DNA of 64,000 nucleotides from Mobula hypostoma. Its lineage: Eukaryota. Positions 5,871 to 52,229 of this stretch are shown here, piece after piece. Positions within the stretch are counted from its first letter, which is position 1; each line of letters opens with the position of its first letter. A model generated the notes under the pieces. That model had not been told where the DNA came from. It saw nothing but the letters and a program-made list of their open reading frames with translations, and did no database searches. The stretch lies in the NCBI RefSeq assembly GCF_963921235.1, contig NC_086108.1:60142001-60206000 (forward strand), in the 5' to 3' direction. The translations under genes were made by a program, and so were the position numbers.

Positions 5871-6547
5871 TTGACCAGCAGATATCCTAGGAGAAGCTTG
5901 CAAGGTGCCTTTGCTTCTCTGTCACCAATTGCATCTGAAGTATTCAGAATTCGAATCTCAACACAGGCTCATGCTATTCAGGGCCACACAGCTCTTCCCT
6001 TTAAACCAGTTTACCCTTTTCACCCTGTGGCAGCTGACACCTCAGTTTGCCAACGTATGAGAGAATCTTTCTACCCTCAGGGAGCAGTAACATCTCTTTC
6101 ACCAAAGGTGGGAAACGCAAGAGCAGCTCTGACCATGAGGATCGCTGTTCAATTGATGAAGTTCATTTTACCCTCCAGTTTAGACGGAACCAAGATCAGA
6201 GCAAAATATTGACATAAAATACACTGAAGCTCTATGACATTTAGAGACTGTGAAAATGAAGATACGTGCCTGTGATTTATTGATGCTCATTCCTCCTGGG
6301 TGTGATTTCATTTTAGTGACATGATTTAATCAACGCAGCTGAATATTTTGAAGTCTCATTGTTTCTTGACCCCATTTTACAGGAATATTGAAACAGTAGT
6401 ACATCATCAAACCTTTGTGCCTGTTCCACCATTCAATGTAATCACAGGAATTTACATCCATTAATCTATCCTTTCTCCATGCCATTTATGGCTTCTGTTA
6501 AAACAGCTCATGTTTAAAATGAACACATGGCTTAGCATTAATTCCTG

Positions 6548-6700
6548 AGCAACAAACACTGGAGGAACTCAACAAGTCAGGCAGTATCTACGAAGAGGAA
6601 TAAACAGTCAATGTTTTGGACTGAGACCCTTCATCAAGACTGAAAAGGAAGGGGGCAGAAACCAGAATAAGAAGGTCAGGGGGGAGGGGAAGGAGTTTAT
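6548..6700 (-). mobile_element. Penelope-like element 3' fragment with degenerate hammerhead motif
   Basis: Reverse complement of 6605-6642 is cagtc-ttgatga-agggtctcagtcc-aaaac-att-gactg, followed by the shared tail 'gatactgcctgacttgttgagttcctccag'. Confidence 0.75.
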
Positions 6701-9596: not shown

Positions 9597-10289
9597 AGTT
9601 AGAGTATTTTGAGTCAGATTTAAAGAGAAAGAAAGAGAGAGAGAGAGAGAAAGCTGTACATAAGATTGACGTATCTGCAGCTCCATTCCAATATTGTAGA
9701 GATCGGTTTGTTTATTTACTTATTTACGGGATGTGTCGTCATCACCTAAGCCAGCATTTATTGTTCATCCCTAGTTGCCCTTGAGAAGGTGATGATGAGC
9801 TGGCTTCTTGAACCACCATGTTTAGTGGATGATGAGTATATTTTGATTTCTGTACTGCTACTACTGTACATTGTTGTTTCTCTTTCTGTGTTACATTTGT
9901 GCTAGTTCTAATAAACTGTTTTCTTGTGGCCTTGAACATGTGTGCAGTGCCTCCCTTTGTTTACGAATACCACAGTACATATGCAAATACCTTCAGATGT
10001 ATCAGAAAAGAACAGAGAACAAATTTTAAAATGATTTTGGTTACACAAGCTTGTTTATTCCATTCCACAGATCCTGCCAGCCTGCTGAGTTCCTCCAGTA
10101 CTTTATTATGCTGCTCTATATTTCCAGTATCTTCAGAAGCTCTTGCATTTATGTTTAACATTCATCTTGCACTGGTTAACTCCAATTTTCACCATCTTTT
10201 TTTCTGCACATAAAGTGTTTCTTCATTTTATTCTGTGCAAATCATGCCCGATAAAATAATGGCTTCTTGTCATAGAGTTGTGGAGTTGT

Positions 10290-15569: not shown

Positions 15570-16200
15570 AGACACAACCACGAGAACATCTGCAGGTGCT
15601 GGAAATCAAAGCAACGCATAGAATGGTGGAGGAACTCAGCAGGTCAGGCAGCATCATGGAAAAGAGTAAACAGTCGACGCTTCGGGCTGCGGTCCTTCAT
15701 CGGGACTGGAAAAAAAAGATGAGGTCAAAGCAAGAAGGTGGGGGAAGGGACGGAAGAAGTACAAGGTGGTAGGTGATAGGTGAAACTGGGAAGGAGGAGG
15801 GGGAAAGTAAAGAGCTGGGAAGTTGAATGGTGAAAGAGATAAAGGACTGGAGAAGGTGGAAACTGGTAGGAAAGAGTAGAAGACCATGGAAGAAAGGGAA
15901 GGGGGGAGAGCACCAGGGGGAGATGATGGGCAGGTAAGGAGCTAAAGTGAGAGAGAGAAATGGGAAGGGGGGAATGGTGAAGTGGGGGGCAATTACTGGA
16001 AGTTCAAGCAATTGATGATCATGCCATCAGGTTGGAGGCCAGCCAGATGGATTATAAGGGGTTGCTTCTCCAATGGGAATGGGAAGTAGAATTGAAATGG
16101 GTGGCCATTTCAAAATGCTGATGGAACTCAGCAGGTCAGGCAGCATCTATGGAAATGAATATACCGTTGACATTCAGGGCCAGGCCCCTTCATCAGGATT
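15570..16200 (-). mobile_element. Penelope-like element 3' region (GIY-YIG C-terminus, pyrimidine-rich tract, two degenerate hammerhead motifs)
   Basis: Antisense of ~15998-16073 encodes 'LEKQPLIIHLAGLQPDGM'; degenerate hammerheads at 15671-15708 (ccgatga...gaagc gtc) and ~16165-16200, each with the shared tail. Confidence 0.8.
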
Positions 16201-16324
16201 ATTGCCACTTTGTCAATTGAAGAAGCTAGCTAAGTGCAAATTCATTGCCATGCATCATATGACATGACAGTATCGATATTTCTTTGTCTGTTAAGTCCTT
16301 TTGGTTGTTATGTCACACCCTTTT

Positions 16325-25230: not shown

Positions 25231-25555
25231 GGTGAATCTTCTCTGTCTCCCTCTGCTGTCCTACTTGCCATCATATTCCTTGTCTCATCTAATCGTCAAC
25301 ATCTCTCATGCTTCTTCACCATCTTCTTGTCCAGTTCTGCAAACGTTCTTCCTGACTCTCTCTCCATCACCACTGATCTCTTCCCCTCTCAGACAACCAA
25401 ACTCCTTCCCAGCCCATCGGTCTCCCTTCAGACCCACTGAGTTTTCTGTCACCTTCAGAATCGGAATCAACTTTAACATCACTGTTATATGTGGTGACAT
25501 TTGTTGTTTTGCAGCAGCAGTACATATTAATAAAAAAAACTATAAATTACAGTAA

Positions 25556-25651
25556 CACACATCAAAGTTGCTGGTGAACGCAGCAGGCCAAGCAGCATCT
25601 GTAGGAAGAGGTGCAGTCGACGTTTCAGGCCGAGACCCTTCGTCAGGACTG
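25556..25651 (-). mobile_element. 96-bp Penelope-derived mini-insertion (hammerhead + tail) with TSD
   Basis: Direct repeat taaattacagtaa at 25543-25555 and 25652-25664. Confidence 0.88.
25614..25651 (-). ncRNA. Minimal type-I hammerhead ribozyme motif, intact core
   Basis: Reverse complement: cagtc CTGACGA a gggtc tc ggcct GAAAC GTC gactg; stem I cagtc/gactg, stem II, palindromic ACGT stem III, GUC cleavage triplet. Confidence 0.8.
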
Positions 25652-26794
25652 TAAATTACAGTAAGATGTATATATAAAATAAATTAAACAAGTAATAAAA
25701 ATAAAAAGAGAAGAAAAAAATTAAGATTAATGTTATTTCCTATACACAAATGTAAAGAAGAATGAAATAATTGTTATTCTAGATCAGATGCAGCACAAAA
25801 TAACACAGAAGACAAATAACACAATAATAATTAAAACACTATAAATGTAAATATAAAAGATAGTTTATATACATAGATTGGTTGTATGTAAATGAAGTAA
25901 TGCTGGGCTGTGCATAAGGTGAACGACAGGAAATAATAAAGTATTTGTGGGTGGAGCTGATAATGTGCTGGACAGTTTGACTACCTGTTGTAGAGCATTC
26001 CTGTCCCTGACAGTGCAGTTTTTGTACTAAGCAGTGATGCAGCTTGCCAGGATGCTCTCTACTGCACATCTGCAGAATGACCTGAGAATGGATGTGCAAA
26101 GTCCAGCTCTCTCCAGCCTCCTCAGAAATTAGATGCATTGGTGGGCTTTCTTGACTGCATAGTATGTGTTCTGGAACCATGAGCGGTTATGCAAGATGTG
26201 CACCCCCAGGATCTTGCAGTTTTGACTGCTTTGTCACTGATGTAAAGAGGGGTGTGGGTGGTCCTTCTGATTTCAATAACCATCTCTTTTGTCATGTTGA
26301 TATTGAAGAATAGGTTACTTGCCTGGCATAAGGGCCTTGAGCTCTTTCACCTCCTCTCTGTAGGATGCTTCATCATCATTAGTGATGACCCCTACCACTG
26401 TCGTGTCATCAGCGAGCTTGGTAGAATGATTACTTGAGTTAGTTATGTATGAGTAGAGTGTATAACAGTAGGTTCAGTACTTAGCCCTGGAGGGCACCCA
26501 TATTAAGGATGATGGAGAGGGATTAATGGTTATGCATCCTGACTATCTGAGGTCTGTTTGTTAGGAAGTCCAACACTCAGTTGCACAGTGGTGTATTTAG
26601 ACAGAGAAGTAGGAGTTTGTTCACAAGGTCTGGGGGACAATAGCGTTGAATGAAACAGTGTTCTGACATAAGTATCCTTGTTTTTAAGTACATCAGGGCC
26701 AGGTGCATGAGAGTTGCTTTGGCATCTGTTGCAGAGTAGTTCTGTCAGTAAGCATATTGCTGAGTGTCCAGTATGGTAGGAATGGTGCTTTGAT

Positions 26795-28567
26795 ATAGAA
26801 ACATAGAAACATAGAAAATAGGTGCAGGAGTAGGCCATTCGGCCCTTCGAGCCTGCACCGCCATTTATTATGATCATGGCTGATCATCCAACTCAGAACC
26901 CAGCCTTCCCTCCATACCCCCTGACCCCTGTAGCCACAAGGGCCATATCTAACTCCCTCTTAAACATAGCCAATGAACTGGCCTCAACAGTTTGCTGTGG
27001 CAGAGAATTCCACAGATTCACCACCCTCTGTGTGAAGAAGTTTTTCTTAATCTCGGTCCTAAAAGGCTTCCCCTCTATCCTCAAACTGTGACCCCTCGTT
27101 CTGGACCTCCCCAACATCGGGAACAATCTTCCCGCATCTAGCCTGTCCAATCCCTTTAGGATCTTATACGTTTCAATCAGATCCCCCCTCAATCTTCTAA
27201 ATTCCAACGAGTACAAGCCCAGTTCATCCAGTCTTTCTTCATATGAAAGACCTGCCATCCCAGGAATCAATCTGGTGAACCTTCTTTGTACTCCCTCTAT
27301 GGCAAAGATTTCTTTCCTCAGATTAGGGGACCAAAACTGCACACAATACTCCAGGTGTGGTCTCACCAAGGCCTTGTACAACTGCAGTAGTACCTCCCTG
27401 CTCCTGTACTCGAATCCTCTCGCTATAAATGCCAGCATACCGTTCGCCTTTTTCACCGCCTGCTGTACCTGCATGCCCACTTTCAATGACTGGTGTATAA
27501 TGACACCCAGGTCCCGTTGCACCTCCCCTTTTCCTAATCGGCCACCATTCAGATAATAATCTGTTTTCCTATTTTTGCCACCAAAGTGGATAACTTCACA
27601 TTTATCCACATTAAATTGCATCTGCCATGAGTTTGCCCACTCACCCAACCTATCCAAGTCACCCTGCATCCTCTTAGCATCCTCCTCACTGCTAACACTG
27701 CCACCCAGCTTCGTGTCATCCGCAAACTTGGAGATGCTGCATTTAATTCCCTCATCCAAGTCATTAATATATATTGTAAACAACTGGGGTCCCAGCACTG
27801 AGCCTTGCGGTACCCCACTAGTCACCGCCTGCCATTCTGAAAAGGTCCCGTTTATTCCCACTCTTTGCTTCCTGTCTGCTAACCAATTCTCCACCCACAC
27901 CAATACCTTACCCCCAATACCGTGTGCTTTAAGTTTGCACACTAATCTCCTGTGTGGGACCTTGTCAAAAGCCTTTTGAAAATCCAAATATACCACATCC
28001 ACTGGTTCTCCCCTATCCACTCTACTAGTTACATCCTCAAAAAATTCTATGAGATTCGTCAGACATGATTTTCCTTTCACAAATCCATGCTGACTTTGTC
28101 CGATCATTTCACCGCTTTCCAAATGTGCTGTTATCACATCCTTGATAACTGACTCCAGCAGTTTCCCCACCACCGACGTTAGGCTAACGGGCCTATAATT
28201 CCCCGGTTTCTCTCTCCCTCCTTTTTTAAAAAGTGGGGTTACATTAGCCACCCTCCAATCCTCAGGAACTAGTCCAGAATCTAACGAGTTTTGAAAAATT
28301 ATCACTAATGCATCCACTATTTCTTGGGCTACTTCCTTAAGCACTCTGGGATGCAGACCATCTGGCCCTGGGGATTTATCTGCCTTCAATCCCTTCAATT
28401 TACCTAACACCACTTCCCTACTAACATGTATTTCACTCAGTTCCTCCATCTCACTGGACCCTCTGTCCCTTACTATTTCTGGAAGATTATTTATGTCCTC
28501 CTTAGTGAAGACAGAACCAAAGTAATTATTCAATTGGTCTGCCATGTCCTTGCTCCCCATAATCAAT
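26795..28567 (-). mobile_element. Young 5'-truncated CR1 LINE
   Basis: (tttctatg)n tail at 26795-26820; 1773-bp alignment to 41411-43183 with only scattered substitutions. Confidence 0.97.
26893..28566 (-). CDS. CR1 ORF2 reverse transcriptase region (557 aa, open, 5'-truncated)
   Basis: '[13 protein letters not shown]', '[13 protein letters not shown]', '[11 protein letters not shown]', '[10 protein letters not shown]' with no internal stops; TE-derived, not a host gene. Confidence 0.92.
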
Positions 28568-31788: not shown

Positions 31789-32261
31789 ACCTTTGTGCAG
31801 ATTAAGCCTCTGTGTACTCCTTGGATGTGAAACAACTTTTGGCAGGGGAGGAAACATTTTAAGTGAAATGTAACAAAAATCTGTGATTATTTAAAATTTC
31901 GTACATGTCCACAGGTAATTCCAAAGTGCTTTACACCAAATTAGTGCCTTGTGTTTTCACCCATAACACTAATCTGGCACAGCGGAAGTGTAAGTGTCCA
32001 TTTGTTTTGTCAGTTAAAAGATCTTGAAATTAGGCAAAAAGACATTTAAACCTGAATAAAATAAAAATGGGATTAACTGTTTACTCATCAGATCAGACAG
32101 TATTACAAAGAGAGAAACATGGAGTTAATGTTTAAGGATGACATTCCTTCATTAGAATTCACATCAGATGGTTTATACCAAAAATCATGCACTAAAATAT
32201 GTGTGTGTCAAGGTCGAGGATGATGGTCTTCATTCTGAAGAAGTGATGCACAGAGTGAACA

Positions 32262-32368
32262 CTCTTCCTTCAGTTAGTCCTGACGAAGGGTCTCGGCCTG
32301 AAACGTCGACTGCGCCTCTTCCTATAGATGCTGCCTGGCCTGCTGCGTTCACCAGCAACTTTGATGTA
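32262..32368 (+). mobile_element. Penelope-derived short insertion nested in the RTE-derived element
   Basis: Nearly identical to 25556-25651 and 50415-50525. Confidence 0.85.
32276..32311 (+). ncRNA. Minimal type-I hammerhead ribozyme motif, intact core
   Basis: agtc CTGACGA a gggtc tc ggcct GAAAC GTC gact; predicted cleavage 3' of C32307. Confidence 0.8.
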
Positions 32369-35141
32369 TGACGCCTGTGCGTGTATTTGTTTAACGTGTA
32401 CTCGATGTTGCACTCCATGAAGCACACGATACTTCACAAATCAACCGACTGATTCCAGTGGCATCTAAACCACGACGATTGGAGCTGATGGATTTGTTGC
32501 AGCCTTCATCCGCCTTCACAGCCGCTGAGTTCAAAATAACTTCGTCCGTCTGTTCTACCATTGAGGTCTTGGTTGGATTGTTCTTTGTCAGGGACCTCAC
32601 CCTCGACCTTACCGCCATGGGTGAGCCTACCAGGAGCATAGCTCCAGACGGCATCGCTCTCGGGATCACAGGACCACACAAGCTGCTCCACCACAACAAG
32701 GTGACAATCCACTGAGAAGGCACTAAAACAGGACCACACCAAACTGACTGTGGCTGAGGAAACAATGTTGCCCTGGTAACCAGACTGCATCAAATGTGAT
32801 TGCCATGAGGAGATACAGCAGGGGTAGGTGAAGAGGATATATTGTACATTATTGCTATTGCACACACTCTCACACACACAAATTGCACAAACTAATCCAT
32901 CCACACCCTCCGTGTACTGTATCTTATCCCATCGTAATCACTGCCTTTATTCCGCATGTGGCATTTTATCCTCTTCCTCATCCACATCAACGTCATCCCT
33001 CCAAAAGGTGATAATGAAAAGCTTACTCAGTGTTCTTCATTTCCTCCACTTAGGCTAAAAGAACAAGGAATAGCTGTGAGGCAATCCACACAGGAGCTGG
33101 TAGTTGGACAAAGCAATACAGATAGAATTTAATCATAAAAATGTAATATGATACATATTAAGAGGACTAGTAAGAGTAGGACATACACCATGTGGTAGAA
33201 CTTTGGGAAGGACTAAGGAACAGAGGGTCCCTAGTGTACCTGTTAGAGAAATGCTGGAGAATAGAATTAGTAGAGATACAGTAGGTGCTTAATGACCAGC
33301 ATGGGAGGAAGATCCTGCTTCCATGTTATATAACTCCATAACTTCTGACTTCACTCAGGAGATCTGAACTCTTGTCCTGTTGAAATATCCAGGCAGTATT
33401 TCCACCCATCCTTCTGTCAAACTCTACCTCTGCTCCTGCACCTAATGTATTCATCCCATATCCTCCTCTCTCTGGTGCTCCCCCTTACTCCCACTTTTAT
33501 TTCAAGGGATCAGTGCCCTCCAATTATTAATCTACTGTCCTTCCTTCGCTTATCTTCCAAATTGTTTCTGTCAGTCATCAGTTTTAAAAACAGAATAAGG
33601 GAAGATATTGGGTATATATTTATGGTTTTCACTATCTCTAAGGTTTTAGAAATTACATTATTTTTGTCACAGCTGTAACAATTGCATCTCTCAGCTGTTT
33701 GTTAAACACAGATGCTACAATTGGTTTTAAAATCCAAGTTTCTTTGAAAAATGACTGAGATATGTTAAGTCTTCGAGGATGATTTTTCATTTAGTTGAGC
33801 ACCCTTTGTGATGTCCAGCTGTTGGAAGCAAGAATGAAGCATTTTAACCAGCCCCGATATATACTGTAGATCCACTCTCAAAAGAATATAGGTAACTAGT
33901 TCAGAATGTTATGCAAATCATAATTGTAGATACTCAAGGCACCATGATGTGTTATATTTATACGCTGTATGCCATGTTCTTTTGGTTGACTCTGAATAGC
34001 CAGCCTTACTTTCATACTCAACCATCTAAGCTCCAGACCAGAATATGTTTTCTCTCTTTCTTCATGTTGTACACACTGAGACACCTGATCAGCAGCTCCT
34101 TTTCACATTCTTTCTTTTTTCACTCAACTACCTGCTCAACTAGCTCACAATGTTATCTTTCCTTCCACTTCTATTATCCCAAAACACTCCCTCCCACCTG
34201 CTTGTCTGCTCATTGCAAAACATAGTCAAATTAATGCATTCCTCTCCAAATAATGGTCTCTTCTCCAAAGAATATGTGGAACTCCCAAAAATGATCCCTA
34301 TTCCAACTTTCCTCTCTCTATCCCCACCAATTTTTATACTCCCTTCTACTTCACCCATCATTAATTAGTGCCATTAACCTGTCGAATGAATCAAAGTATG
34401 TCTGCAAGTTTGGATATTATTAGGCCCGAGTTTTATATTCTGAATTATAATCAGCAAAGAGAAGCAGGTTACAATAGGTTTATGAAATATTTGAAAATGT
34501 AAGTAGAGCTCTTTATATATTTAGATGGTCATTTTTGGTAACATTCCAATATGTAAAGGATATACCCTTGGACGTCAAGCTGATTTGTGTTATTATTGAT
34601 TAAAAAATAACTAAATTGGAATATAATTATTACCATTTTCATGGACAAATCATAAGCAAAATATGTTACATACCTTCGGAAGATATTTATGCTAATTCAA
34701 TATATTTCATAATCTTCTTTAGCCAAATCCTAACATACCAAGCAATTAGGAAATAAAGAGCTGCATTCTGGATTTCTCAGTTCCCAATTAACTTTAATCT
34801 TTCACATCGACATCTACTTCAAAGTCAAAGATTAGGTTAACCATAATACAACACATCAACTAAAATTTATATACAGAAAAATAATTTTTCAGCTTAAATA
34901 AATGCTAGAACTATAATAAGTTAATAGGAATGTAGGAGTCTATAAAGTATAAATGTAGCTAGAAGCAAGAGATAATTACAATTGAGGTTATTGTCTCGAT
35001 GTATTGCATTTGACAAAACATATTCATTTAATACTGCTTAAAATTAAACATACTTGAGCCACTCAAAAGAATATTGACCAAGTACTGCTGTAATTGCCAT
35101 TGCCAGTTACCCAATTACTAGATCCACTCTAGTATCTCGAC

Positions 35142-40070: not shown

Positions 40071-43000
40071 TTTAAACTAGAATGGTTGGGGGGTGGGAAT
40101 CAAATTAAAGAGGCTAGGTGTGAGGAGGTTAGTTCACAACAGAGGGATGGGAACCAGTGCAGAGAGACAGTGGGGTGTAAAGTGAGCATAGAAGCAAAAA
40201 GTACAAAGGGGAAAAGTAAAAGTGGCAGGCCGACAAATCCAGGGCAAGCATTAAAAAGGGCTAAGAGAGTTGTAAAAGAGCGCCTGAAGGCTTTATGTGT
40301 CAATGCAAGGAGCATTCGTAATAAGGTGGATGAATTGAAAGTGCAGATTGTTATTAATGATTATGATATAGTTGGGATCACAGAGACATGGCTCCAGGGT
40401 GACCAGGGATGGGAGCTCAACGTTCAGGGATATTCAATATTCAGGAGGGATAGACATGAAGGAAGGGGAGGTGGGGTGGCGTTGCTGGTTAAAAAAGAGA
40501 TTAACGCAATAGAAAGGAAGGACATAAGCCGGGAAGATGTGGAATCGATATGAGTAGAGCTGCGTAACACTAAGGGGCAGAAGACGCTGGTGGGAGTTGT
40601 GTACAGGCCACCTAACAGTAGTAGTGAAGTCGGAGATGGTATTAAACAGGAAATTAGAAATGTGTGCAATAAAGGAACAGCAGTTATAATGGGTGACTTC
40701 AATCTACATGTAGATTGGGTGAACCAAATTGGTAAAGGTGCTGAGGAAGAGGATTTCTTGGAATGTATGCGGGATGGTTTTTTGAACCAACATGTCGAGG
40801 AACCAACTAGAGAGCAGGCTATTCTGGACTGGGTTTTGAGCAATGAGGAAGGGTTAATTAGCAATCTTGTCGTGAGAGGCCCCTTGGGTAAGAGTGACCA
40901 TAATATGGTGGAATTCTTCATTAACATGGAGAGTGACATAGCTAATTCAGAAACAAAGGTTCTGAACTTAAAGAGGGGTAACTTTGAAGGTATGAGTCGT
41001 GAATTAGCTAAGATAGACTGGCAAATGACACTTAAAGGATTGACGGTGGATATGCAATGGCAGGCATTTAAAGGTTGCATGGATGAACTACAACAATTGT
41101 TCATCCCAGTTTGGCAAAAGAATAAATCAAGGAAGGTAGTGCACCCGTGGCTGACAAGAGAAATTAGGGATAGTATCAATTCCAAAGAAGTAGCATACAA
41201 ATTAGCCAGAGAAAGTGGCTCACCTGAGGACTGGGAGAAATTCAGAGTTCAGCAGAGGAGGACAAAGGGCTTAATTAGGAAGGGGAAAAAAGATTATGAG
41301 AGAAAACTGGCAGAGAACATAAAAACGGACTGTAAAAGCTTTTATAGATATGTAAAAAGGAAAAGACTGATAAAGACAAATGTAGGTCCCCTGCAGACAG
41401 AAACAGGTGAATTGATTATGGGGAGCAAGGACATGGCAGACCAATTGAATAATTACTTTGGTTCTGTCTTCACTAAGGAGGACATAAATAATCTTCCAGA
41501 AATAGTAAGGGACAGAGGGTCCAGTGAGATGGAGGAACTGAGTGAAATACATGTTAGTAGGGAAGTGGTGTTAGGTAAATTGAAGGGATTGAAGGCAGAT
41601 AAATCCCCAGGGCCAGATGGTCTGCATCCCAGAGTGCTTAAGGAAGTAGCCCAAGAAATAGTGGATGCATTAGTGATAATTTTTCAAAACTCGTTAGATT
41701 CTGGACTAGTTCCTGAGGATTGGAGGGTGGCTAATGTAACCCCACTTTTTAAAAAAGGAGGGAGAGAGAAACCGGGGAATTATAGGCCCGTTAGCCTAAC
41801 GTCGGTGGTGGGGAAACTGCTGGAGTCAGTTATCAAGGATGTGATAACAGCACATTTGGAAAGCGGTGAAATGATCGGACAAAGTCAGCATGGATTTGTG
41901 AAAGGAAAATCATGTCTGACGAATCTCATAGAATTTTTTGAGGATGTAACTAGTAGAGTGGATAGGGGAGAACCAGTGGATGTGGTATATTTGGATTTTC
42001 AAAAGGCTTTTGACAAGGTCCCACACAGGAGATTAGTGTGCAAACTTAAAGCACACGGTATTGGGGGTAAGGTATTGGTGTGCGTGGAGAATTGGTTAGC
42101 AGACAGGAAGCAAAGAGTGGGAATAAACGGGACCTTTTCAGAATGGCAGGCGGTGACTAGTGGGGTACCGCAAGGCTCAGTGCTGGGACCCCAGTTGTTT
42201 ACAATATATATTAATGACTTGGATGAGGGAATTAAATGCAGCATCTCCAAGTTTGCGGATGACACGAAGCTGGGTGGCAGTGTTAGCAGTGAGGAGGATG
42301 CTAAGAGGATGCAGGGTGACTTGGATAGGTTGGGTGAGTGGGCAAACTCATGGCAGATGCAATTTAATGTGGATAAATGTGAAGTTATCCACTTTGGTGG
42401 CAAAAATAGGAAAACAGATTATTATCTGAATGGTGGCCGATTAGGAAAAGGGGAGGTGCAATGAGACCTGGGTGTCATTATACACCAGTCATTGAAAGTG
42501 GGCATGCAGGTACAGCAGGCGGTGAAAAAGGCGAACGGTATGCTGGCATTTATAGCGAGAGGATTCGAGTACAGGAGCAGGGAGGTACTACTGCAGTTGT
42601 ACAAGGCCTTGGTGAGACCACACCTGGAGTATTGTGTGCAGTTTTGGTCCCCTAATCTGAGGAAAGACATCTTTGCCATAGAGGGAGTACAAAGAAGGTT
42701 CACCAGATTGATTCCTGGGATGGCAGGTCTTTCATATGAAGAAAGACTGGATGAACTGGGCTTGTACTCGTTGGAATTTAGAAGATTGAGGGGGGATCTG
42801 ATTGAAACGTATAAGATCCTAAAGGGATTGGACAGGCTAGATGCGGGAAGATTGTTCCCGATGTTGGGGAGGTTCAGAACGAGGGGTCACAGTTTGAGGA
42901 TAGAGGGGAAGCCTTTTAGGACCGAGATTAGGAAAAACTTCTTCACACAGAGAGTGGTGAATCTGTGGAATTCTCTGCCACAGCAAACTGTTGAGGCCAG

Positions 43001-43085
43001 TTCATTAGCTATGTTTAAAAGGAAGTTAGATATGGCCCTTGTGGCTACAGGGGTCAGGGGGTATGGAGGGAAGGCTGGGTTCTGA
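40071..43085 (+). pseudogene. CR1 ORF2 with two in-frame TGA stops (40551-40553, 42462-42464)
   Basis: ORFs 40062-40553, 40590-42464 and 42492-43085 share one frame; the sister copy has CGG (Arg) at the second stop. Confidence 0.92.
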
Positions 43086-43183
43086 GTTGGATGATCAGCC
43101 ATGATCATAATAAATGGCGGTGCAGGCTCGAAGGGCCGAATGGCCTACTCCTGCACCTATTTTCTATGTTTCTATGTTTCTAT
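40071..43183 (+). mobile_element. Young CR1 LINE, ORF2 nearly complete, ORF1 missing
   Basis: APE 'LCVNARSIRNK', 'GITETWL', 'GVVYRPPN', 'MGDFN', 'SDHN'; full RT; (tttctatg)n tail. Confidence 0.97.
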
Positions 43184-44407
43184 AACAATATCGAGGACAG
43201 TGATTATCCTTTCATTTCTGGAATTCAGTTCCAAGGTTCATGTCTGGACATCTACTGTAATAAGATCAAAAGTTGAGCTGTCTTGGCAATGCCCAAACTA
43301 GACATTGATGATCAGGTTATTGGTGAGAAAGTACCACTCATGCCACTGTCATAAAACTTCCCATCACTTTGCTGATGAATGAAATGAGATTACAGTATAC
43401 AGTGAATAGTTGGATTTGATTAGTCCTGCTTTTTACAGACAAAATGTCCTGCACAATTTTTAAACATTATCATTTAGGTGCCTTGCAACAGTACCAAAAC
43501 AACTTAGCTTGAATTATGGCTTGTTCTGAAGCATAGCTGTTTTAGCTGGGATATTATCTGGTTCCATTGCCTTTTCTGTAAACATTGCTCTCAGCTGTTT
43601 ATAATACCATGTAATATTAGCTGAAGATTTGCTTTGGCAATAGCGGGAGCATTGGAGGAAGCCAAAATGAATTATCCACCCAGCAAATTCAGCAGATTGA
43701 GATTGTAGGTACATATCTTTCTCTTTAATTTTCGCACACTGGACCCAGCCATTATTATGGATGAGGATATCCTTGAAACCTCTTCCACTTTTTAGTTGTT
43801 ATGATTCAGAGTTAAATGAGGGAACACTGACAAACTTTGATCAGCTTTGTTAGCCATGAGATGAATTAGCTCAGTCTATTGCACACTATTTTTGTTTCTT
43901 GGTATGAAAGTAGTCCCATGTTGTAGCTTTACTATATTGGTACTTCATTTTAAGTCTGGCTGGTGTTGCTCCCAGGTTGTCCCTCAGCATTCCTCATTGA
44001 TCTTGAATTGTTTCCTTGTTTGGTGGCAATGATAGAGTGAAGGGAGTGTACACCCAGCAGGTGACTCACTGTGAAGTTGTGCATTTCTGCTGCTGTTGAT
44101 GGTCCGTTGTCCATTAGAGATGTTTAAGCTGATGTATCTGCTCTTAGATAAATAATAACTCTTGTTTCTCTCTTCACAATTGCTGTCTGACCTGTTTGAA
44201 ATGTATGAATCTATTTCTTTTAGAGCAATGACCTCCCACCCCATCAGCACTACGTATTGATTTGTTGTCTGTGCATGCCCTGTTCTCTACGCATGCACAT
44301 TGCTTGCTCTCTCGCTCCCTCACTGCGATGTGAATACACCAGTTAAAGCCATCTCCATAGTCTATGCTTTTATTTAGTAAATATGTAGTTGTGCAGACAC
44401 AACAAAT

Positions 44408-49317: not shown

Positions 49318-49682
49318 TATGCGGAAAGTTTGAAGTTAATAATTCATCAGTTAATAACTCATCAGGGGTGATTGATAAGTTTGTGGCTTAAGGTAGAAGG
49401 AGATGAGTTATTAACTTCAAACTTTCTGCATCATCACTCAAAGAGCTGAACTGCATATGCATGTTACGAGAGCTGTACAACTCATCTCCTTCTGCCTTAG
49501 GCCACGAACTTACCAATCACCCCTGCTGTAGACACTTTCTGGAGGTCCAAGATCCATATGCTCCACAACCGCTGGACTAAGTGTGTAAATGTAAGAGCGG
49601 ACTATGTTGAAAAATAAATGTGCTAGGTTTTCTAAAATTGACTCCTTCTACATTAGGCCATGAACTTATCAGTCACCCCTCG
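49318..49682. mobile_element. Tc1/mariner-type MITE with internal TIR copies; left end missing
   Basis: Right end 'aacttatcagtcacccctcg' followed by TA; TIR-like 'aggggtgattgataagtttgtggc' near 49365 and an inverted internal copy near 49500-49525. Confidence 0.75.
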
Positions 49683-50024: not shown

Positions 50025-50560
50025 AATACACTCAGGTTGGAGGAACAACACCTTATATTCCATCTGGGTAGCCTCCAACCTGATGGCATGAACATTGACT
50101 CCTCTAACTTCCGTTAATGCCCCTCCTCATGTTCTTACCCCATTCCTTATTTATTTATTTGTTTGTTTGTTTATTTCCTTTTTTTCTCTCTCTGTCCCTC
50201 TCACAATAACTCCTTGCCTGCTCTCCATCTTCCTCTGGTGCTCCCCTCCCCCTTTCTTTCTCCCTAGTCCTCCCGTCCCATGATCCTCTCCCTTCTCCAA
50301 CTTTGTATCCCTTTTGCCAATCAACTTTCCAGCTCTTGGCTCCATCTCTCCCTCTCCTGTCTTCTCCTATCATTTCGGATCTCCCCCTCTCCCTCCCACT
50401 TTCAAATCTCTTACTACCTCTTCTTTCGGTTAGTCCTGACGAAGGGTCTCGGCCTGAAACGTTGACTGGGCTTCTTCCTATAGATGCTGCCTGGCCTGCT
50501 GCATTCCACCAGCATTTTGTGTGTGTTGCTTGAATTTCCAGCATCTGCAGATTTCCTTAT
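50025..50560 (+). mobile_element. Penelope-like element 3' region
   Basis: 'LRLEEQHLIFHLGSLQPDGMNIDSSNFR*' (GIY-YIG C-terminus), CT-rich tract, hammerhead, tail 'gaatttccagcatctgcagatttcc'. Confidence 0.88.
50432..50467 (+). ncRNA. Minimal type-I hammerhead ribozyme motif (GUU triplet)
   Basis: agtc CTGACGA a gggtc tc ggcct GAAAC GTT gact. Confidence 0.77.
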
Positions 50561-52229
50561 GTCTGAGCTGTCATCGTTCCTTTAAGTAAAATATTTGTCA
50601 AGCATGCAGTAAAGTCATCTAAAAATGAAGAGCTGCTGAAGAGGTTTGCAAATTATAAAAGCTTGCTCAGAAATCTGTATTTTAACTACTTATGACACAT
50701 TTACATCAATTGTTGTGCAAATGTTTCTGTTAATGAGCTCATTTAGGAAATTTAAATGTTTACCCTTGTTTTCATTTCCTCCATGATTATGCTTTACAAC
50801 TCATCTGGGCTCCTCCAATTAAAGCTATTTGTTCAACCTAAGATTTAATTACTCGCCCTTTGCCAGTGGTACATTCACCTCTCCCTCTCTCAAAACTTTA
50901 CACCTCTCTGCTGCTAACTGCTTCGTCTCAAACAGAGCTTTTGACTCATGGTCCCTGTGTGGCTCACAGTCCATTTTGTTTATTAAGACCTCCACAACAT
51001 TTTAACTTAAAATAGAAAATAATTAAAATGAGGAGGAAAGATCATATTAATTAATTGTTTCTTCACAGCTGCTTTCCAGGCTGCTGAATATTCTTAGTAT
51101 TTTCTGTTTTATTTCAGATTTCCAGCATCTGGTATTTTGCTTCTGTGACATTGAGTTATCTTATAAACACTCTGCATAAGCATGTACATTAGAACTGTCA
51201 ATCAAACCTGTGCATTAAACCCAATTTGAATTCATTGATATGTGAAGAATATGTTTTTTCTTTTTTTTATTCAATTTATTCCATGAAACCAGCTTTGTTT
51301 GTCAGTGACCCAAAGAAGGAACCCCAGGGATGCACAGTAAGGTCAAGATAATATGGCAATTGCTGCCTGATTTTGGATCATGGTCTGGATTGCAAAATTT
51401 AATTTTTGTTTTATTTTAAAATTTCCAGAGATGGTTAGGGAAGCAGAGCTGGGGTCTGGGGCACATAGGGATCAAGGATCACACGCAGGCTGGATTTGGT
51501 CCTCGAGAGACTGTTATGCATTTTCCCTGCTGAAGCACACGATTAACAGATGAATTAATAGAACCATCCTTAAGGTTTAAGAAAAAAGATCAGACATGCT
51601 CTAGAAAATTACAAGTTAGCCAGGAAGGATCTGAAGAATGGGCTTACAAGAGCTAGAAGTGAACCTGAGAAGGCCTTTACGAATAGGATTAAGAAAAACC
51701 CAAAGGTGTTCTACACGTACATGAAGAACAGAGGAATGACTAGGACCAATCAAGAATACAAGAGGAAACACATGCTTGGAGTCAGAGAAGTAGGGGAGGT
51801 CCTTAATTAATAATTCACTTCAGTATTCGCCTGTGAGAGAGACCTTGACAAATATGAGGTCAGTGTAGAACATGCTAATAGACTGGAACATGTTGAGCTT
51901 AAGGAAGAGGATGTGGTAGAACTTTCACAAAGGTTGGTGGAGTTGTGGAGAGTGTAGAAAGTTCCCATAGATTAGAAGAAGACATTGACAGGATGCAGAG
52001 ATAAGCCAAGAAATCACAGATGGAATTCAATCTTAAAAAGTGTGAAGTTGTACACTTTGGAAGGTCAAATTTGAAAGCAAATTACAGGGTTAACAACAGA
52101 ATTCTCAGCAGTGTGGAGGAACAGAGAAATCTTGGGGTCTACTTCCATACATCCTTCAAAGCTGATGCACAAGTTCATAGGTGGTTAAGAAGGTGTATGG
52201 TGCATTAGTCTTCATTCTTCTTTTTATTG

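What the first reader, a model, noticed from the sequence alone, without database searches (positions are those of the whole stretch)
25556..25651. A 96-bp mobile unit that is essentially a hammerhead ribozyme plus a short tail, with its own TSD
Seen: the insert is flanked by taaattacagtaa direct repeats (17 bp with one mismatch if 'act' microhomology is included). On the minus strand it begins at hammerhead stem I (cagtc CUGACGA..GAAAC GUC gactg) and then carries only ~58 nt of tail. Known: Penelope-like elements carry minimal type-I hammerheads, and retrozymes are short non-autonomous hammerhead retroelements. Inference: this may be a minimal retrozyme-like family mobilised in trans by Penelope RT, or just an extremely 5'-truncated Penelope copy.
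Basis: partly seen in the sequence, partly recalled or inferred. Interest (0 to 1): 0.72.

Follow-up and report, generated by a model that had tools for sequence, protein, structure and literature searches.

The report
Truncated Penelope retrotransposon end with hammerhead
This 96-base insertion is real, but it is most likely the cut-short tail end of a very abundant Penelope-like jumping gene, which carries a known minimal hammerhead ribozyme motif, and not a separate mini-element.

Summary
Observation confirmed: a 96-nt insert (25556-25651, minus strand) with an intact minimal type-I hammerhead, a 58-nt tail and an exact 13-bp target-site duplication. A paralogue of the host repeat carries the duplicated motif once.

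The insert is collinear with the 3' end of a Neptune-type Penelope-like element (PLE). A longer window copy runs 408 nt further upstream into a GIY-YIG ORF end. Eight window copies start at scattered points (about -408 to +40 from the core). The 5' junction lies in a 3-4 nt microhomology, so 'starts at stem I' is partly an effect of the target. The 3' end falls in the proximal of two end clusters about 30 nt apart, the known PLE 'tail' or internal RT-start signature. Contigs from two organisms show a huge family with no sharp step at stem I.

It is not a retrozyme: one hammerhead, no tandem array, and it spans the cut site. A real 5' hot spot just upstream of the hammerhead (the template's own 5' end) remains open at about 20%; notes from this scan report that pattern on other DNA, and this family was noted many times in this genome.

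The parts
25556..25651 (-). Inserted unit: 3' end of a Penelope-like pseudo-LTR (hammerhead module plus short tail)
   Evidence: 91 of 95 nt identical to copy 32276-32370, 87.5% to 50432-50525
25614..25651 (-). Minimal type-I hammerhead motif: stem I (5 bp), CUGACGA core, stem II, GAAAC-GUC without loop 3; predicted cut between 25619 and 25618
   Evidence: matches the min-HHR description in PMC4209133
25556..25613 (-). 58-nt sequence after the hammerhead, ending at the proximal 3'-end cluster (inferred internal RT start)
   Evidence: loose ends at 50524-50530 versus 50554-50557
25652..25664 (+). TSD copy at the element's 5' junction (13 bp; 25648-25664 if the microhomology is included)
25543..25555 (+). 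TSD copy at the element's 3' junction; inferred TPRT primer end, matching the element's continuation at 4 of 5 nt
25455..25555 (+). AT-rich host repeat that was hit; its paralogue at 18101-17841 (minus) is uninterrupted
50028..50558 (+). Longer copy of the family: GIY-YIG ORF end, pyrimidine-rich pLTR, hammerhead, long tail
   Evidence: 27 of 29 aa identical to P0001
32262..32370 (+). Second short copy: starts 18 nt upstream of the core, same short 3' end, no TSD found
15588..16202 (-). Older partial tandem: short hammerhead unit joined to ORF end, pLTR, hammerhead and long tail
6547..6692 (-). Older decayed copy starting about 39-55 nt upstream of the core

Best explanation
A severely 5'-truncated insertion of a Neptune-type, endonuclease-positive Penelope-like retrotransposon. 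(1) The element's GIY-YIG endonuclease made staggered cuts in an AT-rich target [inferred from the TSD]. (2) The nicked end primed reverse transcription internally on the element RNA at the proximal of two start sites downstream of the hammerhead, perhaps helped by a 4-of-5-nt match [3' end position shown, mechanism inferred from the anole PAc element]. (3) RT copied an uncleaved RNA straight through the hammerhead [shown: the insert spans the cut site]. (4) After about 92-96 nt the cDNA was joined to the other target end through a 3-4 nt microhomology that coincides with stem I [microhomology shown, causality inferred]. The hammerhead is a passenger here; a lone copy lacks helix III and should need a partner or the element's protein to cleave.
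For: The whole insert aligns to the 3' end of longer copies; 50028-50558 continues into a GIY-YIG C-terminus with 27 of 29 aa identical to RT+GIY-YIG protein P0001. Eight copies start at about -408, -405, -39 to -55, -18, -4, -2 to -6, +31 and +40 relative to C3. There are two 3' ends about 30 nt apart in the window (5 short, 3 long) and in four runs (50524-50530 and 50554-50557, with low-agreement AT-rich flanks), as in PAc. In X1, summed depth at the ORF end (5.84M) equals that at the hammerhead (5.71M), and the bin just upstream holds 3.27M, no lower than a dip inside the module (3.36M). TSDs of 8-10 bp, microhomology 5' junctions and solo pLTRs are described for PLEs. The monomer's lowest-energy fold sequesters the core.
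Against: Two of the five other core-bearing copies also start within 20 nt upstream of the core (P about 0.04-0.12 under exponential truncation), and 16202-16108 has nearly the same two ends as the focal unit. Depth does fall to about 0.57-0.61 of the hammerhead value just upstream. The tool states that contig depth is no copy number. Only 24 of 1906 loose-end rows were shown, and not ranked by count alone, so the missing row at stem I is no bound. None of the other five copies searched had a detectable exact TSD.
Confidence: 0.72

Rival explanations
1. Run-off product of defined length. The same tail motif also lies near the 5' end of a PLE transcript that starts in the upstream pLTR. RT starting there would run off the RNA's 5' end just upstream of the hammerhead and give a complete 95-110 nt cDNA. 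The boundary could be a transcription start (initiator-like TCAGTY) or a 3' splice site closing the pyrimidine tract. Such units placed in front of a full copy would rebuild the pLTR.
For: Three of six core-bearing window copies start at -2 to -18. The partial tandem 16202-15588 begins with such a unit. An initiator-like or acceptor-like motif abuts stem I. PAc RT initiates 111-118 nt into the ORF start on a pLTR-ORF template. D. virilis Penelope starts transcription inside the pLTR and its intron ends at helix I. Joints from the ORF end to 50432 appear only in run X21 (letters between not known, run flagged 'probably DNA'). Two unchecked scan notes report the same clustering in other genomes; these are leads only.
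Against: The clustering is not significant with five independent copies. The focal junction is fully accounted for by microhomology and has no extra G. There is no order-of-magnitude depth step at stem I. Alignments of diverged subfamilies start at stem I anyway because conservation starts there.
Confidence: 0.2
2. An independent 96-nt retrozyme- or SINE-like family with its own source copies, mobilised in trans by PLE RT.
For: Own TSD; intact core; a 96%-identical short copy with the same 3' end. Vertebrate PLE-derived retrozyme units of 51-972 bp with dispersed monomers are reported, including in one chondrichthyan. A joint 50468 to 50432 with three letters between is seen in X1 and X5; its kind is not shown.
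Against: No tandem array here. The nearest sister copy has a different 5' end (-18). No tRNA-derived head, and all 96 nt are PLE sequence. The unit spans the cut site. No tail-to-head joint among the 15 of 224 joints shown.
Confidence: 0.06
3. The ends were set by ribozyme self-cleavage or by copying a circular RNA.
For: One decayed copy (10052, plus) starts about 2-3 nt after the cut site.
Against: Neither end of the focal unit is at the cut; the cut site is internal (nt 33/34). In PAc, hammerhead mutants do not affect insertion and no RNA-seq ends map to the cut.
Confidence: 0.02

Closest known systems
5'-truncated insertions and solo pLTRs of EN+ Penelope-like elements with optional 30-40 bp tail (PMC8557442 and PMC3846280, passages; PMC2377424, parts 1-3 of 4)
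   Same: Heavy 5' truncation, partial tandems, TSD, microhomology 5' junction, two alternative 3' ends, GIY-YIG ORF upstream; P0001 has the CX2-5CxxC motif of Neptune/Nematis
   Different: Shorter than the pLTRs described there (181-218 bp in A. vaga); TSD 13-17 bp versus 8-10 bp; no inverted 5' copy at this locus
Poseidon element PAc of Anolis carolinensis (PMC11167929, parts 1-2 of 4)
   Same: Hammerhead upstream of two adjacent internal RT start sites; AT-rich target; uncleaved RNA as template
   Different: Different clade (Neptune-type here); this subfamily has ACG where PAc has its start codon in the hammerhead; a 4-of-5-nt primer-template match is present here, whereas PAc starts without homology in vitro
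Minimal hammerheads (min-HHR) of metazoan PLEs (PMC4209133, parts 1-2 of 4)
   Same: Type I, 5-bp helix I, no loop 3, palindromic 15.2-16.2, mostly solo copies tied to truncated PLEs
   Different: G-U (or A-U) instead of G10.1-C11.1; cartilaginous fish are not mentioned in the parts read
Non-LTR retrozymes (PMC7229834, passages; bioRxiv 10.64898/2026.07.22.740005, parts 1-3 of 5)
   Same: Type-I hammerhead, non-coding, pLTR-related
   Different: Those are tandem arrays with at least two hammerheads that yield circular RNA; this is a lone TSD-flanked unit

Membership tests
EN+ Penelope-like element (3' end) | Collinear with a pLTR that follows an RT + GIY-YIG ORF | tested here: met
   (GIY-YIG E=0.00046, 20.9 bits, below the 22.6 cut-off); loose ends at 50028/50031 continue into the ORF
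EN+ Penelope-like element (3' end) | Optional 30-40 bp tail, i.e. two 3' ends | tested here: met
EN+ Penelope-like element (3' end) | Variable 5' truncation and partial tandems | tested here: met
   8 window copies; small sample
EN+ Penelope-like element (3' end) | TSD in an AT-rich target | tested here: met
   uninterrupted paralogue
Neptune clade | CX2-5CxxC motif before GIY-YIG (shared with Nematis) | tested here: met
   seen in P0001; definition
Neptune clade | RT phylogeny | not tested
   no RT of this family in the window
min-HHR, type I | Core nucleotides, helix I 4-5 bp, no loop 3, palindromic 15.2-16.2 | tested here: met
min-HHR, type I | G10.1-C11.1 pair | tested here: not met
   U at 11.1; C makes up 27% (X1) and 31% (X5) of depth at 50455
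min-HHR, type I | Self-cleavage as dimer or with protein | not testable with these tools
   active-like dimer -11.9 versus dimer MFE -33.5 kcal/mol; such models do not predict catalysis
Rfam hammerhead families | Covariance-model match | tested here: not met
   0 gathering hits in the window; no hammerhead among 6 hits at E up to 10
Non-LTR retrozyme | Tandem array with at least two hammerhead units | tested here: not met
   no array at the locus among 6 TRF rows; nearest intact core 6.6 kb away on the other strand
Non-LTR retrozyme | Arrays of this 96-nt unit elsewhere in the genome | tested here: inconclusive
   none among 15 of 224 joints shown; one unresolved joint at the core
Non-LTR retrozyme | Cut-to-cut monomer and circular RNA | not testable with these tools
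   only contigs available; the unit spans the cut site
SINE | tRNA-derived head | tested here: not met
   all 96 nt align to the PLE end
SINE or fixed-length derivative | Fixed 5' end across copies | tested here: inconclusive

The most novel reading that the evidence does not exclude
Short hammerhead-headed units like this one are complete run-off cDNAs. RT starts at the tail motif in the transcript's 5' pLTR and ends at the RNA's true 5' end (or at a splice boundary) just upstream of the hammerhead. This would be a strong-stop-like product of defined length that inserts alone or in front of a full copy, and would explain how Penelope elements regenerate their pseudo-LTRs.
Probability: 0.2. 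Interest if true: 0.6.

Novelty: new member of a known kind. Interest (0 to 1): 0.2.

Why it matters
As read here it is an ordinary, fairly young truncated PLE copy. Its value is as a clean junction record: it shows in vivo copying through an uncleaved hammerhead from the proximal RT start, matching in vitro work on the anole element in another clade. If the run-off reading held genome-wide, it would address how PLEs rebuild pseudo-LTRs, which PMC2377424 states has no obvious mechanism. A family this abundant would make that directly testable.

Tried and rejected
No whole genome is held, so copies could not be collected genome-wide. Two family patterns found 0 matches in viral, metagenome and prokaryote collections. 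Rfam gave no hammerhead match. Folding stability of the 96-mer is not above shuffles (z 1.2). No RNA holder was listed; this is no evidence on expression. TSD search on five other copies found none. A text search of the PAc supplements gave 0 hits in 7,325 characters; their figures could not be seen and may bear on 5'-end positions. Supplements of the bioRxiv retrozyme paper were not seen and may list a chondrichthyan unit like this one. Paper searches returned no description of a TSD-flanked hammerhead mini-unit in sharks or rays; the library lacks most subscription papers and Repbase. The dimer energy was an invalid value and was redone. Chance and assembly artefact are rejected. A sequence look-up among earlier findings returned nothing.

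Full report
Observation. The insert is exactly as described: 96 nt at 25556-25651, read on the minus strand as a 5-bp stem I, the core CUGACGA, stem II, GAAAC-GUC with no loop 3, the stem I partner and 58 nt of tail. It is flanked by an exact 13-bp direct repeat, 17 bp with one mismatch. Only 1 of 63,700 positions in the window has an exact 13-mer on both sides of a 96-nt spacer. A hammerhead descriptor gave 3 hits, all in this family, and none in 100 shuffles. The target lies in an AT-rich repeat. Its paralogue at 18101-17841 carries the duplicated motif once, which supports a true insertion. The empty allele at this locus was not tested.

What it belongs to. BLAST and nhmmer find seven other related pieces in the window, plus one relic at E=0.022. 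The copy at 50028-50558 is 87.5% identical over the module and continues 408 nt upstream of the core through a pyrimidine-rich region into the last 29 codons of an ORF. That peptide matches 27 of 29 residues of P0001, a protein labelled Mobula hypostoma with RT motifs, a CX2-5CxxC motif and a weak GIY-YIG hit just under Pfam's cut-off. By the definition in PMC8557442 (passages) this points to the Neptune or Nematis type; no tree was built. The host is probably a ray or other cartilaginous fish (inference from that hit). Every base of the insert is thus the 3' end of a Penelope-like element; there is no tRNA head.

The 3' end. Five window copies stop near the focal end and three run about 30 nt further. 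I laid contigs of four runs on the long copy: X1 from organism A, which may be the window's source, X5 from organism B, and X20 and X21 guessed to be RNA. 124,234, 104,355, 8,941 and 6,153 contigs were laid. Loose ends with heterogeneous AT-rich flanks cluster at 50524-50530 and 50554-50557 (24 of 1906 rows shown). The focal end corresponds to 50525. This is the optional 30-40 bp tail of PLEs, which PMC11167929 (parts 1-2 of 4) traced to two internal RT start sites downstream of the hammerhead. The first five bases of the TSD match the element's continuation at 4 of 5 positions, so a short primer-template pairing is possible (inference).

The 5' end. Relative to C3 the eight copies begin at about -408, -405, -39 to -55, -18, -4, -2 to -6, +31 and +40 (decayed copies are approximate). 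At the focal junction the target's next four bases match the element's stem I 5' strand at 4 of 4 against the two sister copies and 3 of 4 against the insert itself. The true junction may therefore lie anywhere in stem I, and one substitution is needed on either reading. Microhomology 5' junctions, TSDs of 8-10 bp and solo pLTRs are described for PLEs (PMC3846280, passages). In X1 the summed depth was 5.84M at the ORF end, 3.27M just upstream of the hammerhead, 5.71M on it, 3.36M in a dip inside the module and 5.49M on the tail; unique flank was about 6.5. X5 had the same shape. A dominant stand-alone 96-mer would give a steep step at stem I, and none is seen. The limits are real: the tool says this depth is no copy number, the fall to 0.57-0.61 could hide a minority hot spot, and the loose-end table is not ranked by count alone, so the missing row at stem I bounds nothing.

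Against the simple reading. Two of the five other core-bearing copies start within 20 nt upstream of the core (P about 0.04-0.12 under exponential truncation). The unit at 16202-16108 has nearly the same ends as the focal one and heads a partial tandem. An initiator-like or splice-acceptor-like motif abuts stem I. In D. virilis Penelope, transcription starts within the pLTR and an intron ends at helix I (PMC2377424, parts 1-3 of 4; PMC4209133). Two earlier scan notes on other genomes report 5' ends piled just upstream of the hammerhead. They are unchecked; they prompted this rival, and my test of it was inconclusive. I give 20% to a run-off product that ends at the template's own 5' boundary.

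The ribozyme. The motif fits the minimal hammerheads of metazoan PLEs, which are thought to act as dimers and showed no monomer activity (PMC4209133, parts 1-2 of 4). It has U rather than C at 11.1 (C is 27-31% of depth). Its lowest-energy monomer fold pairs the core with the cleavage triplet, and an active-like dimer is far above the dimer minimum; such energies do not predict catalysis. Rfam does not match it. The cut site is internal to the insert, so the template was uncleaved, as found for PAc.

Retrozyme test. Non-LTR retrozymes are defined as tandem arrays with at least two hammerheads (PMC7229834, passages; bioRxiv 10.64898/2026.07.22.740005, parts 1-3 of 5). This locus has one hammerhead and no array, and no tail-to-head joint was among the 15 of 224 joints shown. 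The preprint does report PLE-derived units as short as 51 bp with dispersed monomers, and one joint at the core (50468 to 50432) in both organisms is unresolved. I therefore leave 6% for an independent family.

Verdict. A real, fairly young insertion, almost certainly the end of a Penelope-like element, and most likely an ordinary severe 5' truncation fixed by microhomology. The kind is known. My searches found no paper describing this mini-unit in cartilaginous fish, within an open-access library. The scan has noted this hammerhead family many times in the same genome (44 notes fit the look-up, 8 shown). Interest 0.2; the run-off reading would deserve about 0.6 if a genome-wide end map confirmed it.

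Noticed in passing
window 15588-16202 (minus): Partial tandem: a hammerhead plus short-tail unit of about 95 nt joined directly to the GIY-YIG ORF end, pLTR, a second hammerhead and the long tail. The two cores are about 494 nt apart and both are mutated; this is closer to a two-hammerhead layout than the focal unit.
   Followed up: partly
window 50120-50433: A pyrimidine tract of about 300 nt ends in an AG/initiator-like motif right at stem I, with a branch-point-like motif about 20 nt upstream. Run X21 alone shows joints from the ORF end (50097, 50118) to 50432, letters between not known. A pLTR intron is possible.
   Followed up: partly
window 50432-50468 (table 5c): A joint from the end of stem I back to its start with three letters between, in both organisms (depth 33.6 and 45.5). 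It could be a tandem duplication of the bare hammerhead core or an inversion; the kind was not shown.
   Followed up: no
window 10050-10140 (plus): A decayed copy that begins about 2-3 nt downstream of the predicted cleavage site and has the long tail.
   Followed up: partly
window 32083-32163 (minus): A relic of an older hammerhead-tail unit (E=0.022) about 100 nt upstream of the 32262 copy, on the opposite strand.
   Followed up: no
window 25648-25662: The right-hand TSD copy is a 15-bp palindrome with a one-base centre; the paralogue supports this version as the ancestral target.
   Followed up: partly
window 50529-50660: The 3' junction of the long copy is also present in organism B (contig piece 32), so that insertion is shared by both organisms.
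   Followed up: partly
window 26790-28567 (minus) and 41411-43188 (plus): Two 99.4%-identical LINE copies with long open RT frames (560 and 636 aa); CR1-like by recall, not tested. A recently active family.
   Followed up: no
window 49319-49680: Nested inverted repeats (arms 49360-49528, with further 39-nt copies at 49642-49680) inside or beside a decayed LTR-retrotransposon-like region.
   Followed up: no
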